64,000 nt of DNA from Naegleria gruberi (taxonomy: Eukaryota). The stretch lies in assembly GCA_000004985.1 (NCBI GenBank), contig GG738905.1. One strand, written 5' to 3'. The translations under genes and the position numbers were made by a program. The notes below the pieces were generated by a model. It was given only the letters and a program-made list of their open reading frames with translations, was not told the origin of the DNA and made no database searches. Below are positions 15,548-64,000 of the stretch, one piece after another. The number at the start of each line of letters is the position of its first letter. Position 1 is the first letter of the stretch.

Positions 15548-15994
15548 CTCTGATCAATTCGTGAATTTTTTTTGCTGGAAATTACTTTTGGGTCTAAATT
15601 TAGCTCAGATTGCTTCTGTTGGAAAATTCAATATTGAACTGAACAATGAACCAGCTGTTAAATTTTGTAATGTATTGAAATTGATATCAAATAAATTTAA
15701 CATTTCATATTAGTTTTTAATATTAGTACTAGCCAACAGTAACCAATCAAAATTATTCAATATTTGGAGTTAAAAAACTCCACTGAATTCTTCCTCCGCA
15801 AAATGCACTCCTCATTACTTCTCCAATATTGACCAGCAGCATCTTTCCACTTCGATATCGATTCCAACAATGCCTAACCACATCGGAGAAGTAAATCAAA
15901 AAAGAATCTTGTCAATTTTTCAAATATTTTTCAAATTTTTGTTATTTTAAAATTTTCTCTCACAGAAAAATCATCAACACCAAAGATTATTAAC

Positions 15995-17812
15995 ATGTCC
16001 TTGCAAAGAAGTTTAGAAGCAATCAAGGGTTTGCATCCTGCTCCATTGTGGAATTACTTTGTCAAACTCTCCCAATGCCCACGTCCATCCAAGAAGGAAG
16101 AAAAGGCTATTGAATTTTTGAGAGCCTACGCTAAGGAAAATAACTTTGATATCAATGTTGATAATGTTGGCAATTGTTTGATCAAGGTTCCAGCTACTCC
16201 AGGCTATGAAAATACTCCAACTGTTGCTATTCAAGGACATATTGATATGGTTTGTGAGGTAGGTTTATTGTTGCTGTGTGGATTGTTTAAATGTTTGGAT
16301 TAATACTTTCATGTGATGATGAATTAATTTATTATTATTTATATATTTAAATATTTAATATATGTGATAATGTGATTTATAATCATCATGATGATAATGC
16401 AATTTCCATATTGAAAATCATGCAATTTCCTGTTGTTTCCATCAATTTATCTTCATCATCAATTTATATAGAAAAATGTAAGCTTTAACATTTGGAAGTT
16501 TTCTCATCACTCTATTACTCTAATCAAACTAATTTAAATTATTCATCATGCTATTTAATAATTATCATAATAGAAAACCACTCAACATGATTTTGACACT
16601 GATCCAATTACATTGATTCGTAGTCAAGATGGTGATTGGATTCATGCTGATGGTACTACTCTCGGATCTGACAATGGTATTGGTGTTTGTTGTGGATTGG
16701 CTCTTGCCACTGATAAGGATGTTGTCCACGGACCAATTGAATTGTTGTTGACCATTGATGAAGAAACTGGCATGTCAGGAGTTATGGCATTAAAGCCAGA
16801 ATTCTGTACTGCCAAGTATTTGTTGAATTTGGATGCTGAAGAACTTGGTGCTTTCTATGTTGGTTGTGCTGGTGGTCAAGATACTACTGCTTCTTTCGAT
16901 ATTGTTGAAGAAGAATTGGTTGACTCATCTTCATTTGAACAAGTTTCAATTATGGTTTCTGGTTTGAAGGGTGGTCACTCTGGTATTGATATTCACACTG
17001 GACGTGGTAATGCCATTAAATTGTTGGCCAGAACTTTGAAGCATGTTTTGGATGAAGTTCCATCTGATAATCTCAAAGTTTTCTATATTGAAGCTGGTAG
17101 TAAGAGAAATGCAATTCCAAGAGAAGCTTGGGTTAATGCCTATGTCAAGAAGGATAAATTGGAAGCTGTTAAGGAAAGAGTTGCTGCTTTTGAAAAGTTA
17201 GCTGTTTCTGAATTCAGTGTTCCAGAACCAAACTTGAAGATTTCTGTTGGTCCAGTTGAATCTGCCACTACTTCTACTAAGGTCTTTGCTAGTGAATTCT
17301 TGTCCAAATTGATTTCAGTCATCTTTGCTGTTCCTCATGGTGTTTTCCAAATGAGTCCAGTTATTGAAGGTCTCGTTGAAACCTCTACCAACTTGGCTAT
17401 TGTCAATACTCGTGATGGTAAGATTGAATTCTGTACTTCTCAAAGATCAAGTGTCAACTCTGCCAAGAACTACGCTGCTCACAGTGTTGCTTCTGTCTTT
17501 GCCTTGTCAGGTGCTGACGTCAAACACTCTGATGGTTATGTTGGATGGCAACCAGATATGAATTCTCCACTCCTCAAGTTATGTAAGGATGTTTACACTG
17601 AAAAGTATAAGGCTACTCCAGAAATTAAGGCTATTCATGCTGGTTTGGAATGTGGTTTGCTCTTGGAAACTTATCCAAACATGCACATGATTGCTTATGG
17701 TCCAACCATTGTTGGTGCTCACTCTCCAGACGAAAAGGTCAGAATTGCTGATGTTGCTCATACTTATGAATTGACCAGTGCTATTTTGGAAGCTATTGCC
17801 AAGAGTCAATAA
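15995..17812 (+). CDS. Xaa-His (aminoacyl-histidine) dipeptidase, PepD-like M20C family; 2 exons
   Basis: Exon 1 is 15995..16258 (..IQGHIDMVCE|gtaggt). Exon 2 is 16574..17812 (ataatag|AAAACC, KTTQHDFDTDPITLIRSQDGDWIHADGTTLGSDNGIG). Phase 0 on both sides agrees with the ORF-table frame; intron ~315 nt. Motifs HIDMV, TTLGSDNGIG and IDEETGMSG are the PepD metal and catalytic signatures. Length ~500 aa, as in bacterial PepD. Confidence 0.8.
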
Positions 17813-17981
17813 ATTGTAATTTCCACATCATTTATTAATATCAAATCAGGTCTTTTTCAAGAGTTTAAATTTCAATTCATGTCTTTCTAATTCATTCGAA
17901 TTGAATGAAATTGTGAGCTAAAAGTCTTTTGGTTAGCTGTACAGTAAATTATTCCACCATCTTATTTAAATGATAACATCA

Positions 17982-18365
17982 TTATTCCTCATCCTCGTCT
18001 TCTTCATATCTGTAACGTTGTCTCTTTTGGAGCTGTCTCTCATATTCTGCTTGATAAACTTGACGAAGTTGTTCATCTTGAATTTCCTCAGGTTTTATAA
18101 TTGGTTTTCCTTGATTCGTTCTTTCTACATTTTCCTTGTAAATCTATTGTGAAAATTAAATTCCGAAATAATTCCAAATATTAAAAACGACATCAAATGT
18201 GAAATCCAAAGTTGATGTCACCAAATTTTTAAAAACACCTACTGAATAAAGAGGATTTTCATTGGCTTTCTTATCTAACCATTGTTTACTCCACTTGTTA
18301 ATTTGCAGCGAGAGGAACACTACTCCGATGACTGATAGTGGAGCAGCTACTGTGACAACCTTCAT
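17982..18365 (-). CDS. small single-pass membrane protein with charged C-terminus (2 exons, ~95 aa)
   Basis: Exon 1 runs MKVVTVAAPLSVIGVVFLSL..ENPLYS|gtaggtg. An ~100-nt intron ends cacaatag. Exon 2 is IYKENVERTNQGKPIIKPEE...RYEEDEDEE*. Phases are consistent. Confidence 0.35.
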
Positions 18366-40539: not shown

Positions 40540-40795
40540 AAAGTCTTCATCTTCTGAATATGATTCAAAGAAAGTTGCCTAATTTTTGAGGGATGAGAAT
40601 TGATGGATTGAAAGCCTCCATCTCATTGAGAATGAGCATTGACAATAATAGTGGAATCATTCAATGTCGATTTGAAACTATTTCAAATAAATTTCGAGTT
40701 GGAATCTGCTACTTTTTTTAAGTGTTTGGTGATAAACGTTGGGTCAATTTGTTACTTTCCATTTTGAGGAGTCATGCAGATTTCTTGAATGAAAG
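40540..40795 (+). repeat. terminal repeat A1 of the DIRS-like element
   Basis: About 90% identical to 44976-45236. Both start aaagtcttcatcttctgaatatgattcaaagaaagttgcctaattt and end gatttcttgaatgaaag. Confidence 0.85.
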
Positions 40796-40796
40796 T

Positions 40797-40915
40797 TGAA
40801 GTGAGTACCCCACTCACTAAGGTTTATTGTAAACTACACACACCAATAAATATGAAAAATTTTTGTCTGAAAAAATTTCAACACAGCAAGATGTTAAAAG
40901 ACAAGATTTACGCTC
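40797..40915 (+). repeat. repeat B1
   Basis: ttgaagtgagtaccccactcactaaggtttattgtaaactacacacaccaataaatatgaaaaatttttgtctgaaaaaatttcaacacagcaagatgttaaaagacaagatttacgctc is identical to 44800-44921. Confidence 0.9.
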
Positions 40916-42034
40916 TTATTAAAGAACACTCCAGTGATGTTATGGCTAGTATGCCTCCAAACACCATCAAGATGGTATTGGATCTACTTGGCGAAAACCC
41001 TGAAGACAAAGAAAGATGGCTAGAAATTGTTGAAGACGCAGGTGGTGCGTTATTCAACAACTTCTCAACAAAAGCAGAGGCCCAGGAATACTTTACCAAA
41101 GGTATTAAGAAGTTAGCAAAGAGTGGTAAAGTTGCTTCCACTAGAAGTAAGACTACCTCTTTGCAAGAGGCAAGCACTCCAAGTAACATGAATAAGACTT
41201 CTTCTTCATCTCAAATGGCTACCCCAAAGGTTTCTAGCGTTAGTCAGGTTAGAGAGTTCGTCCAAAAGAGAAGGATTGAAGAAACAGACGACAAGGAGTG
41301 GAAGAGAAGAGGTGTTATTCTTGACCCAGCTGATTTCCTTGAAAAGCCAGCTACTTGGAATCTCCCAAGTAGACAACAATGGGAAGAGATGAACCGCCAA
41401 ATCAACATTTTAGTGGTCGGTAAACAGGTTGAAGAAAAGGTTAAGGAAACGTTTCCGCCATTGAGTACCAATAACCAAGCATTGAAAGCAGAGTACGACA
41501 CCTTGAAAGAGGTCGCAGGAAGCGTCTACGGTGCTGCATTGTTGAACAAGGATGAGTCAGTTGCAGACAAGTTGGAGGGTGCCATTGAATATATCAAGGA
41601 GAAAGCGGTACACCTCAAGCTCGTTTCCTTCGACAAGCATCTTGCGGAGAAGGTTCGTATCATTCGTTCAGATAAGACCTGGAGAGAACAGGCTGACCTT
41701 ATTAAGGTCGCCTCCAAGTTGATGAAGGTAGAAAGTGAAGTGATTAAGAATGGAAACTTGCCAGTCATCAATAATATGACTAAAGCTGTTGAAAAGGCAA
41801 GAGATACCTATCCTGTAGCTTCCCACTGTTTCAAATGCGGAGAAGTTGGACACTTGGCAAAGAATTGCAATAAATCCACTTCCAAATACGTCTCGGTAAG
41901 TACTATTTTTCGATCCTCCAGATGCGGCAGAGATACGGGAGAGGAAACAAGCTGTTCACTCCATTTCGAATGCTTGGAAGGAGTGGAAGAGAAGAGGAGC
42001 GAAACCTTCGATAATAAGGCTCCTGAAAGAGGGT

Positions 42035-43852
42035 GTGAAAGTGCTTCCTTCAACAGGGTTCAAAAGATCAGTGGAGACAGTAAATTCAGCCAAGTTCTCA
42101 ATAAGGGAACTACAGTGGTTGGAAAGGGAGATAAATTTGCTAAAGAAGATTGGTGCATTAGAAGCTTGTCAGAATGCGGAAGTAGTGGCCAAGTTCAGAT
42201 TGGTACCAAAGGGAGAACAGTACAGATTGATTGTAGACTTGAGACCCTTAAACAAATATTGCCTCATCCCCAAATTCAAGTACAACACATTGAAGAGATT
42301 CTTAGAGTTTATTCCAGAATCTGGAACCATGTTCCTATCATCATTCGATTTGAAGTCTGGGTACCACCAGCTAAAAGTCCACAAGGACTCAAGAAAATTT
42401 TTTGCTATCAACTATTTTGGACAATTATTACAGTTTACTGTGTTGCCCTTTGGCTGGAATGGATCACCATAGAACTTCACTTTGGTAATGAATCAAGCGG
42501 TAATTTTGATGGAATCACCACTCATGCGTCTTTCCAATTATTTGGACGATGTGCAAATAGTGAATGTAGTGGAAGAAACAATAGCCGTACAGAATGTAGA
42601 AATATGCAGGGAAGATGCAAACCAGCTTGGTTTAGTGTTAGAGAGAAGAAAGAGTGTAATGAAACCAATGACAGAATTAGTAGTGTTGGGGTCATGTGTG
42701 AATATTATAACGAAGACACTATCAATGACAGAGGCTACGATAGTGAAGATTACGAATATGATAAAATCAGTACTCACGCGGATTCATTTAGGCAAAACAG
42801 TGTCGGTAAGGAAGATGAGTTCGATAAGCGGGACAGTGATTGCTTATTTGGAATGTTTTATCCCAGCAAGGGTGATGCTTGCTCCCATATTCGCCTTAAT
42901 AGCAAAAACAGTAGTGAAGTACGGATGGAAAGCTTCGGTATTCGTAAGGGATGTCAGGGTCATTCACAACCTTCAATGGATTATTGCAAATATAAGGATG
43001 TGGAATGGAAAACACTTCCAGAGGCCATCATTGGTCTATTACTTCTGGACAGATGCATCAGATTGGGGTTGGGGAGCATATTTCGAGGAGAAGGACTTGA
43101 AGATAGGTGGTCAATGGTCGGAACAAGAAAGAAAACTTCATATCCATATAAGAGAAATGTTAGCGGTGTTAAGAGCTTTGATGGAATGGAAGCATTTGTT
43201 CGAAGAGAGAAAGATCATTATTTATGTGGACAATTGGATTATCTTACACAACATTTTAAAGGGATGGGCAAAAAGCCCACTTATGAGAAGGTTAATTATG
43301 AGCTTCTGGAGAATTATATTCAGCCACAATATAACTCTATTGTCTGTGGAATGGTTACCGTCGGAAGAGAATTATATGGCAGACGGGATCAGCAGGGGGA
43401 TAATGAACGATCCCACGGATTGGGAGATGACTATTCCAGCATTTCAAAGGATTCAGAAGGAACTTCTAGTGGAAATAGGATTCGACAGATTCGCTTCCCA
43501 CGTAAGCTTCAAAGTCAAGCCTTACATGGTAAGAGAAAGAAATTTCAGAGGAGAGAAAGCAGACGCCTTCTCTACATTATGGACAGAAGAGGTTGTAAAT
43601 TTGTGTTGCGTCCCATTCAACTTAATAGGAAGAGTATTGAAACATTGCGAAGAATCAAAAGCTATAATGGTGTTGATTCATCCAGTATGGAAGAGAAGGT
43701 TTTGGTGGCCAATTCTAGAAAAGTATCGTATAAGGAGTGTATCGATGAATGGAAAGGACTTCTTTACAAAGTCCAATACAGGTCACGTAGAACCTTGCAA
43801 GAAATCTTGGCTATTAGAGGCAAGTCTGATAGATTGTCGAACTCGGAACTAA
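42035..43852 (+). pseudogene. RT/RNase H ORF of the DIRS-like element, interrupted by one in-frame TAG (~42473)
   Basis: Both sub-ORFs are in the same frame. The stop falls between the LPFGWNGSP motif and the YLDD motif. Otherwise the frame is intact. Confidence 0.7.
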
Positions 43853-44772
43853 TTAGAATTGCCAAGGAGGTCATTAGCTCTCACAGATACAAAGAGAGCA
43901 CTGACAAGAACTACAGAAGATATTGGGTGCGCTTTATTAGATTTAACATTGAAAGAAAGGCTTGTTTTCCTCCTTCAGAAGATAATCTTATTGCTTTCCT
44001 GACGAACATGTTCCTTAAAACACCGTCAGGAAGCAACTGCAGTGCAGCATATGCTGCTATCATGGCATTTGCCAAGAAATTTAGTTTAGATCAGGGAATG
44101 CGAGGAGATAATATTCGAGAAGTTTTAAATGGAATGACTAATCTTTCAAGAGTGGCTAGTGAGAAGGAAAGAAATGCTTGGCAACTAGAATTTATTAGAA
44201 AGTGGGTGAGCATAGGTAGGAGAAGCGTGTCTGACAGAGAATTTGTATTATACACATCTATGATGATCATAGGTCTACGAACTATGTTGAGAGGAAGTGA
44301 ACTTGGTGAACTAAAGACCGAAGATGTTCAATTTCTTCGCTTGGAGAATGGTAAAATGGCAGTCAAATTGAAATGTAGAAGAGTTAAATCTAGTCAGGGT
44401 AGAATGGGTAGAATTATGTGTATAGAGAGTACAGGAAATGATTTGTGCCCAGTATCTTGGTTGAATAGGTGGATGGTGTATAGAGATCAAGGTGATTACT
44501 TATTTGGTAATAGTAAGGCTTTGACTACAATCGACATTTCGTGGATACTGAGATTTGTGGCGTCAGTTATTGGAGTAGATGGATGTTTCTCCTCTCATTC
44601 TTTAAGAATTGGAGGTGCTAATGAAGCAGCTCAAGCAGGTTTTTCTCTCGCTGCTATTCAAGCTTTAGGCAACTGGTCTTCAAATGCGGTTGACAAATAT
44701 TTCAGATCTGAGTTTTTCTATAGTAGAAACGTATCAAAAGAATTGGGTTTCTAGTAGGGGCTCATTGTTTTC

Positions 44773-62905: not shown

Positions 62906-64000
62906 TCAAATTCTTAGCATGTTGAAAACTTCCTTCTTGAGGGAATCTAATAGGATTGGTTTGTAAATGACAGAGTCAAAACCATGACCCACTAGAGTAT
63001 CAACACTTTCCCAAGTATTGGCTGTAATGGCTAAAATTGGTGTTTGTTTTTCAGTTTCGTTTTGTTTCTCTGCTTTACGAATCATTTCACATGCTTCCTT
63101 ACCTGAAAGAATTGGCATGAAACAATCCAACAAGATAATGTCGTACTTCTTTCGTTTGTACATGTTGAAACATTCCATTCCATCACAGGCTACATCAATA
63201 TCTTTAAATCCAATAACTCTTAGCATTTTGGTGAGGATTTTCCTATTAACTGCATTATCATCTACAACAAATATTGATTTCTTACTAATGTCAGGTCGAA
63301 TAGGACTGGATGGGTGGTGAGATTCTGATCTTTCACTTGTTGGAGAGGCTGTTTCTACTCCCAAGAATGTTGGCATGCTGCCTACTTCAACAATTGATTG
63401 TCTTGGGGTACAACTGGCTTTCTTGCAATGTGCATTGTGCGGTTTCTCTTTCAACACCAAATCAGCCAAATCAACAAACTTGATCGGTTTGGTCAGGTAT
63501 GAGAAAGTTTGATGATGTCTTGTTTCTCCTCTGAATATTGAAGGAATTATCATGCAATTCAATTGTTCCACAAATCTAGTGCCTTGAATTTGAGTACAGA
63601 ACGATTCTGGGCAGAAAATCATATATTTACAGGAATGATCTGCAACATGGAGAATATTTTCAGATTCTTGAACAAAATCTGCATGAGTTTCAAAATCTTG
63701 AATAAGCACAACTCGTTTGAACAAGTTCAAATAGGAAGACAGTACTTGTCTAAAAACTGGATCCTCATCAATAATGATAATACTCAAATCTTGTGATTGA
63801 TCTTCACTTAGAACGTCCAATAAATTTTCTGGATTCAAATTAATGTGAGTTGAGGAAGAAGAGCCTTCAGAATCTGTAACTTGCTCTTGTTTGTCCATTT
63901 CTTCGAGAGGGATATAGACGTTCATTGTTGTTCCTTCTCCTACTCTTGAGTTGACAATAATCTTTCCTTCCATTTTCTCAATAATTTGCTTAGTAATATT
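62906..64000 (-). CDS. hybrid sensor histidine kinase, C-terminal part (end of HATPase_c plus receiver domain); 5' portion beyond window end
   Basis: The frame stays open to the window edge. GKIIVNSRVGEGTTMNVYIPL is the G2 box end of an HK ATPase domain. The receiver domain is IFVVDDNAVNRKILTKMLRVIGFKDIDVACDGMECFNMYKRKKYDIILLDCFMPILSGKEACEMIRK (DD...D...K pattern). Confidence 0.75.
   Translation of the reverse strand, partial: NITKQIIEKMEGKIIVNSRVGEGTTMNVYIPLEEMDKQEQVTDSEGSSSSTHINLNPENLLDVLSEDQSQDLSIIIIDEDPVFRQVLSSYLNLFKRVVLIQDFETHADFVQESENILHVADHSCKYMIFCPESFCTQIQGTRFVEQLNCMIIPSIFRGETRHHQTFSYLTKPIKFVDLADLVLKEKPHNAHCKKASCTPRQSIVEVGSMPTFLGVETASPTSERSESHHPSSPIRPDISKKSIFVVDDNAVNRKILTKMLRVIGFKDIDVACDGMECFNMYKRKKYDIILLDCFMPILSGKEACEMIRKAEKQNETEKQTPILAITANTWESVDTLVGHGFDSVIYKPILLDSLKKEVFNMLRI

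What the first reader, a model, noticed from the sequence alone, without database searches (positions are those of the whole stretch)
15995..17812. Bacterial-type PepD (Xaa-His dipeptidase) gene carrying a spliceosomal intron: candidate ancient horizontal acquisition
The protein is collinear with bacterial PepD (M20C) over its whole ~500-aa length and has all metal-binding and catalytic motifs. The gene is interrupted by a ~315-nt GT-AG intron in phase 0, and its codon usage matches its neighbours, so it is a bona fide host gene. PepD is widespread in bacteria. Among eukaryotes, animals have related M20 enzymes (CNDP1/2 carnosinases), but these are not PepD-type. That pattern suggests horizontal acquisition.
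Basis: partly seen in the sequence, partly recalled or inferred. Interest (0 to 1): 0.55.

Follow-up and report, generated by a model that had tools for sequence, protein, structure and literature searches.

The report
Bacterial-derived dipeptidase gene in Naegleria
This is a real nuclear gene of the amoeba Naegleria gruberi for a bacterial-type dipeptidase (PepD), most likely captured long ago from an Ignavibacteria-like bacterium; it later gained introns, two of which flank a 6-base micro-exon. This is a clean but fairly ordinary case of bacterium-to-protist gene transfer.

Summary
Window 15995-17812 (+) encodes a full-length M20C/PepD dipeptidase (TIGR01893, 537 bits) with every metal-binding and catalytic residue intact.

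The "315-nt intron" is really two phase-0 GT-AG introns of 213 and 96 nt. They flank a 6-nt micro-exon, AAAAAT (Lys-Asn, 16472-16477). This micro-exon is conserved in all five heterolobosean genes examined and restores the bacterial CEKNK motif. The resulting 502-aa product is identical to the public N. gruberi model XP_002671446.1 ("predicted protein").

Orthologues occur in N. lovaniensis, N. fowleri, Willaertia magna (two copies) and a Naegleria-like metagenome contig. They share the micro-exon and a second intron position.

The closest non-heterolobosean proteins are all prokaryotic: Melioribacteraceae/Ignavibacteria at about 53-56% identity. PepD-type genes do exist in other eukaryotes (green and brown algae, Lotharella; Entamoeba by annotation). 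The algal proteins are only about 40% identical, sit next to marine group II archaea, and share no intron position with the heterolobosean genes. Forcing heteroloboseans to join the algal clade costs 93 lnL units (z 4.5).

Horizontal acquisition before the Naegleria-Willaertia split is therefore supported. The kind of event is well known and the gene model is already public, so interest is modest.

The parts
15995..16258 (+). Exon 1 (88 codons, Met1-Glu88). Contains the HIDMV motif with metal ligand His82 and catalytic Asp84.
16259..16471 (+). Intron 1 (213 nt, GTAGGT...ATATAG, phase 0). This position is shared by all heterolobosean orthologues.
16472..16477 (+). 6-nt micro-exon AAAAAT encoding Lys89-Asn90. 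It restores the conserved CEKNK motif.
16478..16573 (+). Intron 2 (96 nt, GTAAGC...AATAG, phase 0).
16574..17812 (+). Exon 3 (412 codons plus TAA). Covers the rest of the catalytic domain, the lid/dimerisation domain (M20_dimer) and the C-terminal metal ligand His473 (502-aa numbering).

Best explanation
The locus is the Naegleria gruberi gene NAEGRDRAFT_81522. It encodes a 502-aa di-zinc M20C dipeptidase of the PepD (aminoacyl-histidine / broad-specificity dipeptidase) type.

Origin (inferred). An ancestor of Naegleria and Willaertia acquired the gene from a bacterium of the FCB group whose PepD resembled that of today's Melioribacteraceae/Ignavibacteria. The intronless bacterial gene then drifted to host composition. 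It gained spliceosomal introns, and the two oldest lie 6 nt apart and enclose a Lys-Asn micro-exon. It was duplicated in Willaertia, and it gained and lost further introns within Naegleria. N. gruberi lacks the HAGLE|CG intron that the other lineages have.

Function (inferred from homology). The protein has no N-terminal extension relative to the bacterial enzymes, so it probably acts in the cytosol. By analogy with PepD it would work as a homodimer, cleaving dipeptides with a metal-activated water (His82, Asp123, Glu154, Asp177, His473; general base Glu153; lid His225/Asn269/Arg381). That would be the last step in digesting peptides from ingested bacteria.

Shown here: the gene structure, conservation across species, residue conservation and phylogenetic affinity. 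Inferred: the direction of transfer, the donor, enzyme specificity and cellular location.
For: Family membership:
- TIGR01893 match of 537 bits, PDB 3MRU/2QYV matches, and Pfam Peptidase_M20 plus M20_dimer.
- All catalytic and ligand residues are invariant.

Host gene:
- Introns are present and the neighbours are eukaryotic.
- Composition is host-like.
- The translation exactly equals XP_002671446.1.

Age:
- Orthologues occur in N. lovaniensis, N. fowleri, Willaertia (two copies) and contig L085.
- They share the micro-exon and the intron at 447/448.
- The adjacency of PepD and NYD-SP28 is shared by N. lovaniensis, Willaertia and L085.

Bacterial affinity:
- After the heteroloboseans, the top 117 hits among 5.8 billion proteins are prokaryote-sized. 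The named ones are Melioribacteraceae, Ignavibacteria or Bacteroidota, at 50-56% identity.
- The best species-level genomes are Melioribacteraceae, at 50-54%.
- Mean identity is 52.8% to that group, against 39.7% to algal PepD and 41.4% to other bacteria.
- NJ bootstraps give the same picture.
- ML placement puts the clade with the Melioribacteraceae group, inside an FCB-dominated part of the tree.
Against: - The heterolobosean clade, with the unidentified eukaryote L084, is sister to the sampled Melioribacteraceae group rather than nested inside it. The exact donor and even the direction of transfer are therefore inferred from distribution, not read from the topology.
- The deeper backbone has negligible NJ support.
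- The ML analysis used a home-made BLOSUM62-derived model on a fixed NJ backbone and moved only one clade.
- Other Heterolobosea and Discoba, and the Entamoeba and Trichomonas homologues, were not in the trees.
- No transcript or enzyme data were examined here.
Confidence: 0.8

Rival explanations
1. A single bacterium-to-eukaryote transfer happened in some other eukaryotic lineage, related to the organism behind metagenome contig L084. The gene then passed between eukaryotes or was inherited from a deeper common ancestor, so heteroloboseans were not the direct recipients.
For: ML places the heterolobosean clade as sister to the L084 protein (RELL 0.93, against 0.07 for sister to the bacteria alone). 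L084 is eukaryotic: it has a 33-nt GT-AG intron and an AMPK-beta neighbour.
Against: - L084 and its 83%-identical relative are themselves closest to the same bacterial group (48-53%), not to Naegleria (about 46%); no heterolobosean protein is among their 120 listed hits.
- L084 shares no intron position and no micro-exon with heteroloboseans.
- The grouping could be attraction between two fast-evolving branches.
- NJ recovers it in only 26% of replicates.
Confidence: 0.12
2. PepD was present in the last eukaryotic common ancestor and inherited vertically, with many losses. The similarity to Ignavibacteria is then a rate artefact, or reflects transfer from eukaryotes to bacteria.
For: PepD-type genes occur in several eukaryotic supergroups: Chlorophyta, brown algae, Rhizaria, Heterolobosea, and Entamoeba by annotation. 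Heteroloboseans are sister to the bacterial group, not nested within it.
Against: - Heterolobosean and algal proteins are only about 40% identical, while each is 53-59% identical to a different prokaryotic group: Ignavibacteria versus marine group II archaea.
- The sister group of the heteroloboseans contained an alga in 0 of 300 NJ replicates.
- Placing the heteroloboseans beside the clade that holds all sampled algal proteins costs 93 lnL units (z 4.5).
- No intron position is shared with Coccomyxa, Chlorella or Pylaiella.
- The family is very common in bacteria (over 3600 representative clusters at E<1e-30).
Confidence: 0.05
3. The sequence is bacterial contamination or an assembly artefact, and the intron is not real.
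For: None beyond the bacterial-type protein.
Against: - The coding sequence is interrupted by AT-rich, stop-filled sequence with canonical splice sites.
- The same interrupted structure recurs in four other genomes or contigs.
- Flanking genes are eukaryotic.
- GC3 is host-like.
Confidence: 0.01

Closest known systems
Bacterial PepD, MEROPS M20C (Vibrio alginolyticus PDB 3MRU, Haemophilus somnus 2QYV, E. coli PepD)
   Same: Collinear over the whole length. Has the same two-domain layout (catalytic plus lid/dimerisation) and the same metal ligands, catalytic Asp/Glu and lid His/Asn/Arg.
   Different: The sequence is far from the gammaproteobacterial enzymes. It scores 421 bits on the E. coli-type equivalog model, whose cut-off is 991, so the same substrate range cannot be assumed. 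It is encoded in a eukaryotic nucleus with introns.
Aminoacyl-histidine dipeptidases of Melioribacteraceae/Ignavibacteria (for example loci L004-L011, proteins P0004-P0122)
   Same: These are the closest sequences outside Heterolobosea (50-56% identity). They share the CEKNK motif and length, and they are the sister group in NJ and ML trees.
   Different: They are intronless bacterial genes. The heteroloboseans are sister to this group, not nested within it.
Heterolobosean orthologues: N. lovaniensis C9374_008714, N. fowleri FDP41_004419, Willaertia magna ABK040_006414 and ABK040_013303
   Same: 61-83% identical for the N. lovaniensis and Willaertia ABK040_006414 proteins, and 56% for the second Willaertia paralogue. 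They have the same micro-exon and first intron pair.
   Different: They carry extra introns that N. gruberi lacks (447/448; 185/186 and 263/264 in N. lovaniensis; 473/474 in one Willaertia copy). The conserved downstream NYD-SP28 neighbour is absent in N. gruberi.
Algal PepD-type proteins (Coccomyxa, Chlorella, Picochlorum, Chlamydomonas schloesseri, Bryopsis, Lotharella, Pylaiella, Cladosiphon)
   Same: Same family, also nuclear and intron-bearing.
   Different: Only about 40% identical. Many have N-terminal extensions. They are nearest to marine group II archaea, their intron positions differ, and likelihood separates them from the heteroloboseans.
Animal carnosinases CNDP1/CNDP2 (M20A)
   Same: Same clan and overlapping chemistry (Xaa-His dipeptides), according to the review PMC6271292.
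   Different: They belong to a different subfamily. Among the NCBIfam models, the M20A-type PepV gives only 19 bits here, against 537 for the M20C model. CNDP sequences themselves were not compared.
Constitutive micro-exons of plants and animals (3-30 nt)
   Same: A very short coding exon flanked by strong canonical splice sites, conserved across species, and encoding conserved residues (general background from PMC8831610 and PMC7821500 abstracts).
   Different: This one lies in a heterolobosean protist and in a gene of bacterial origin, so both flanking introns must have been gained after transfer. Inclusion in mRNA was not checked here.

Membership tests
Peptidase M20C / PepD (aa-his-dipept, TIGR01893) | Full-length match to the subfamily model above its curated cut-off | tested here: met
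   536.9 bits against a cut-off of 343.75, covering residues 14-496 of 500.
Peptidase M20C / PepD (aa-his-dipept, TIGR01893) | Di-metal ligands (His, Asp, Glu, Asp, His), catalytic Asp and Glu, and lid His/Asn/Arg | tested here: met
   H82, D84, D121, E151, E152, D175, H471, H223, N267 and R379 (500-aa numbering) are invariant in alignment A1 and align with the Vibrio residues. Residue roles are taken from PMC6271292.
Peptidase M20C / PepD (aa-his-dipept, TIGR01893) | Catalytic M20 domain with an inserted dimerisation/lid domain | tested here: met
   PF01546 spans residues 78-494 and PF07687 spans 217-298.
E. coli-type cytosol non-specific dipeptidase (NF011600 equivalog) | Score above the equivalog cut-off | tested here: not met
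   420.9 bits against a cut-off of 991. It is a subfamily member, not a demonstrated functional equivalent of E. coli PepD.
Peptidase M20C / PepD | Hydrolysis of Xaa-His and other dipeptides, dependent on metal | not testable with these tools
   Requires an enzyme assay.
Gene acquired by prokaryote-to-eukaryote horizontal transfer | Genuinely part of the eukaryotic genome (introns, eukaryotic neighbours, orthologues in related species) | tested here: met
Gene acquired by prokaryote-to-eukaryote horizontal transfer | Groups with a specific prokaryotic clade to the exclusion of other eukaryotic homologues | tested here: met
   In 86% of NJ replicates the heteroloboseans sit with the Melioribacteraceae group, and their sister group contains an alga in 0/300. 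ML delta lnL is 93.4 against a position beside the algal clade. Caveats: simple methods, and Entamoeba, parabasalids and other Discoba were not sampled.
Gene acquired by prokaryote-to-eukaryote horizontal transfer | Recipient clade nested inside donor diversity, which gives the direction of transfer | tested here: inconclusive
   The clade is sister to the sampled Melioribacteraceae group, not nested within it. The wider neighbourhood is FCB bacteria but is poorly supported.
Gene acquired by prokaryote-to-eukaryote horizontal transfer | Absence from close outgroups of the recipient (other Heterolobosea and Discoba) | not tested
Only the top 120 hits per search are visible.
Coding micro-exon | An exon of 30 nt or less, bounded by canonical AG and GT, in frame, and conserved between species | tested here: met
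   AG|AAAAAY|GTAWG is found in five genes, with only a synonymous T/C difference. It is unique in the window.
Coding micro-exon | Inclusion in mature mRNA | not testable with these tools
   Indirect evidence only. The public protein models of N. gruberi, N. lovaniensis, N. fowleri (two annotations) and Willaertia all contain the Lys-Asn.

The most novel reading that the evidence does not exclude
Because the gene came from an intronless bacterial donor, every intron in the heterolobosean PepD genes is a datable post-transfer gain. That includes two introns inserted 6 nt apart before the Naegleria-Willaertia split, which created a constitutive 6-nt coding micro-exon, one of the smallest conserved coding exons seen in this analysis in a protist. 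The locus would then be a natural experiment. It could inform intron gain and loss rates in Heterolobosea (at least 6 gains and 1 or more losses in one gene family). It could also show how a divergent spliceosome recognises a 6-nt exon without the animal-specific micro-exon machinery.
Probability: 0.45. Interest if true: 0.5.

Novelty: new member of a known kind. Interest (0 to 1): 0.35.

Why it matters
It adds a well-documented and roughly datable (pre-Naegleria/Willaertia) bacterium-to-protist transfer of a peptide-catabolism enzyme, with a plausible donor group (Ignavibacteria, common in sediments and biofilms where these amoebae graze).

It shows that PepD-type enzymes entered eukaryotes at least twice, from different prokaryotic sources.

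It also provides an unambiguous case of post-transfer intron gain that includes a conserved 6-nt micro-exon.

The enzyme is present in the pathogen N. fowleri and has no human orthologue of the same subfamily (humans have M20A CNDP1/2), which may be of minor practical interest.

None of this overturns current views. Such transfers are common in free-living protists, and the gene model is already in public databases.

Tried and rejected
The N. lovaniensis orthologue P0001 was used instead.
- A single-protein scan of genome contigs found nothing. An alignment-based scan worked.
- Flanking synteny between the window and N. lovaniensis or Willaertia: none within about 10 kb.
- Rfam scan of 15800-18000 for an intronic RNA: nothing.
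- Literature searches for this gene, its accessions, Naegleria HGT lists and Naegleria micro-exons returned nothing specific. The N. gruberi genome paper is not held.
- The N. gruberi protein did not appear as a self-hit. I first suspected masking or a different species. The cause is a faulty 90% cluster represented by unrelated short Salmonella fragments, so a contamination reading was rejected.
- The exact-bipartition bootstrap for heteroloboseans plus the Melioribacteraceae group is low (0.26-0.33) because a few rogue taxa move. A tolerant clade measure and ML placement were used instead.
- A shared-intron test against algae was negative.

Full report
**What is there**

The window is AT-rich (about 34% GC). 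Its large ORFs carry eukaryotic domains: alpha-kinase, PAS-adenylate cyclase, HPS3, ABC1 and XRN1.

At 15995 an ATG opens an 88-codon exon that ends at 16258. A second reading frame runs from 16574 to the TAA at 17810-17812. The 315 nt between them begin with GT and end with AG. They have 22% GC against 39.5% in the exons and are full of in-frame stops.

The joined product belongs to the PepD family:
- It matches NCBIfam TIGR01893 (aa-his-dipept) end to end, at 536.9 bits against a cut-off of 343.75.
- It matches Pfam Peptidase_M20 plus M20_dimer.
- It matches the solved PepD structures 3MRU (E 2e-119) and 2QYV (E 7e-112) over residues 10-498.
- The residues that a review of the Vibrio structure names as metal ligands (H80, D119, E150, D173, H461), catalytic residues (D82, E149) and lid residues (H219, N260, R369) (PMC6271292) correspond to H82, D121, E152, D175, H471, D84, E151, H223, N267 and R379. 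All are invariant in a 26-sequence alignment.
- It does not reach the equivalog cut-off for E. coli PepD (421 bits against 991). It is therefore a subfamily member with unproven specificity.

**The gene structure needs correcting**

The annotated orthologues read ...MVCEKNKTTQ..., whereas the single-intron model gives ...MVCEKTTQ.... The bacterial consensus is CEKNKGT.

Inside the "intron" lies AG|AAAAAT|GTAAGC. An AG|AAAAAY|GT hexamer occurs exactly once in the corresponding interval of N. lovaniensis, a Naegleria-like metagenome contig (L085) and both Willaertia paralogues. In a five-way DNA alignment this AGAAAAAYGTAWG island is the only conserved block between the exon borders, and its only variation is a synonymous T/C. 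The pattern is unique in the 64-kb window, where 0.08 occurrences are expected.

The structure is therefore:
- exon 1, 15995-16258
- intron, 16259-16471 (213 nt)
- micro-exon, 16472-16477 (Lys-Asn)
- intron, 16478-16573 (96 nt)
- exon 3, 16574-17812

The 502-aa translation is identical, residue for residue, to Naegleria gruberi XP_002671446.1 / EFC38702.1 / D2VWX3 (NAEGRDRAFT_81522, "predicted protein"). The 500-aa version is not in the collection. This identifies the organism and shows that the public model already contains the micro-exon.

The self-hit was missing from the first search because the protein's 90% cluster is represented by unrelated short Salmonella fragments. That is a clustering artefact.

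**A host gene, and an old one**

GC3 (0.29) lies within the range of neighbouring ORFs (0.27-0.36). The RSCU correlation with the pooled neighbours is 0.76, against 0.76-0.97 for those ORFs. T-ending codons are unusually frequent (50%).

Orthologues exist in N. lovaniensis (83% identity), N. fowleri (same 90% cluster), Willaertia magna (two paralogues, 61% and 56%) and contig L085.

All of them share the intron pair and micro-exon after MVCE. All except N. gruberi also have an intron at HAGLE|CG (position 447/448). Other introns are more restricted:
- N. lovaniensis and L085 share one at 185/186.
- N. lovaniensis alone has one at 263/264.
- One Willaertia copy has one at 473/474.

PepD is followed by an NYD-SP28 (DRC1-like) gene in N. 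lovaniensis, Willaertia and L085, but not in N. gruberi. N. gruberi shows no flanking synteny with these loci within about 10 kb.

The gene, with its first introns, therefore predates the Naegleria-Willaertia divergence.

**Where it came from**

After the heterolobosean entries, the top 117 hits among 5.8 billion proteins are prokaryote-sized (484-529 aa, nearly all 486-490) and 50-56% identical. Every named one is Melioribacteraceae, Ignavibacteria or Bacteroidota. In species-representative prokaryotic genomes the best matches are Melioribacteraceae (50-54%), followed by Saprospirales, Calditrichaceae and Bacteroidales (44-51%).

PepD-type proteins are not absent from other eukaryotes. They occur in:
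- many green algae (Picochlorum, Chlorella, Coccomyxa, Trebouxia, Chlamydomonas schloesseri, Bryopsis, a pedinophyte, Stichococcus)
- the chlorarachniophyte Lotharella
- brown algae (Pylaiella, Cladosiphon, Nemacystus)
- Entamoeba histolytica EHI_042170, which is annotated as one (PMC12965686)

The algal proteins are only about 40% identical to the Naegleria enzyme. Their nearest prokaryotes are a different group, whose named members are marine group II archaea (Poseidoniia/Thermoplasmatota).

**Trees**

NJ trees of 263-306 sequences gave these results:
- The four heteroloboseans are monophyletic (100%).
- Their sister group is the Melioribacteraceae-type group or a subset of it in about 63% of replicates, the unidentified eukaryote L084 in 26%, and never contains an alga (0/300).
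- In 86% of replicates the smallest clade holding the heteroloboseans plus at least 20 other taxa is essentially the Melioribacteraceae group.

No ML program was available, so I wrote a likelihood evaluator. It uses a BLOSUM62-derived reversible matrix with four gamma categories and analytic gradients. I placed the heterolobosean clade on every branch of a 55-taxon backbone.

After full branch-length optimisation, the results were:

| Placement of the heterolobosean clade | Delta lnL vs best | KH z | RELL |
|---|---|---|---|
| Sister to L084, then the Melioribacteraceae group (best) | 0 | - | 0.93 |
| Sister to the Melioribacteraceae group alone | -8.8 | 1.4 | 0.07 |
| Sister to the algal + archaeal clade | -93.4 | 4.5 | 0 |
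| Sister to a six-alga clade | -235.8 | 8.0 | 0 |

The resulting tree puts the eukaryote pair and the Melioribacteraceae group, with Saprospirales, inside an FCB-dominated region.

Intron positions in Coccomyxa (9 introns), Chlorella variabilis (15) and Pylaiella (10) do not coincide with any heterolobosean position. Green and brown algae do share one with each other, at 80/81.

**Interpretation**

The best-supported history is as follows:
1. A PepD gene was transferred from an Ignavibacteria-like FCB bacterium into an ancestor of Naegleria and Willaertia.
2. Its composition ameliorated toward that of the host.
3. It gained introns, the oldest two lying 6 nt apart.
4. It was duplicated in Willaertia.
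5. Introns were later gained and lost in individual lineages.

Function is inferred from homology. With no N-terminal extension relative to the bacterial enzymes, it is probably a cytosolic homodimeric di-zinc dipeptidase that completes peptide breakdown in a bacterivore. The strong T3 codon bias hints at high expression, which is inference only.

**Limits**

- The recipient clade is sister to the sampled donor group, not nested within it. The direction of transfer therefore rests on the family's huge bacterial distribution (over 3600 representative clusters at E<1e-30) against its patchy eukaryotic one.
- L084 (46% identical, with a 33-nt intron at 438/439 and an AMPK-beta neighbour) may represent the same acquisition or an independent one. 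Its own best hits, after an 83%-identical relative, are the same bacteria, not Naegleria.
- Other Heterolobosea and Discoba, Entamoeba and parabasalids were not in the trees.
- The ML model is improvised, and only one clade was moved on a fixed backbone.

**Novelty**

No paper in the held library mentions this gene, its accessions or a Naegleria PepD transfer. The N. gruberi genome paper could not be read.

The gene model is public and the phenomenon is common, so this is a new, well-supported member of a known kind. The conserved 6-nt micro-exon in a gene of bacterial origin is the most unusual feature.

Noticed in passing
window 40789-44754 (+): A 1321-aa ORF with a CCHC zinc knuckle and a C-terminal tyrosine-recombinase (Phage_integrase) domain. 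It sits in the only GC-richer stretch of the window (0.40-0.43, with strong GC skew). It looks like a DIRS-like or tyrosine-recombinase retroelement.
   Followed up: partly
protein collection, cluster of P0535 (N. gruberi XP_002671446.1): The N. gruberi PepD protein sits in a 90% cluster whose representative and other members are unrelated 39-56-aa 'Salmonella enterica' partial proteins (8/34 identities). This clustering artefact hid the self-hit in the homology search.
   Followed up: yes
loci L087-L089; proteins P0274-P0397 and P0350-P0407: Algal PepD-type genes (green algae, Lotharella, brown algae) form a group next to marine group II archaea (Poseidoniia). Green and brown algae share an intron at window position 80/81, and many of the proteins have N-terminal extensions. 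This looks like a separate acquisition or exchange worth its own analysis.
   Followed up: partly
L084 1163-2686 (JGI 3300051390, Ga0503153_040033): An unidentified eukaryote contig (36% GC) carries a PepD that is 46% identical to Naegleria's. It has a single 33-nt phase-0 GT-AG intron at position 438/439, the same position as a Coccomyxa intron, and an AMPK-beta (AMPKBI) gene downstream. Its closest named relatives are Melioribacteraceae.
   Followed up: partly
L001 12186-14348; L002 11758-13743; L085 3431-5482: PepD is immediately followed by an NYD-SP28 (DRC1-like flagellar) gene in N. lovaniensis, Willaertia and a Naegleria-like metagenome contig. This adjacency is broken in N. gruberi, where no flanking gene within about 10 kb is shared.
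   Followed up: partly
window 62906-63997 (-) and L003 18821-21771: A response-regulator / hybrid histidine-kinase ORF at the end of the window is about 55% identical to a gene lying 7 kb from the Willaertia PepD paralogue P0003. This could be residual synteny or just a large gene family.
   Followed up: no
window 15995-17812: Third codon positions of the PepD gene are 50% T, against 35-36% in neighbouring large ORFs. This may reflect high expression.
   Followed up: no
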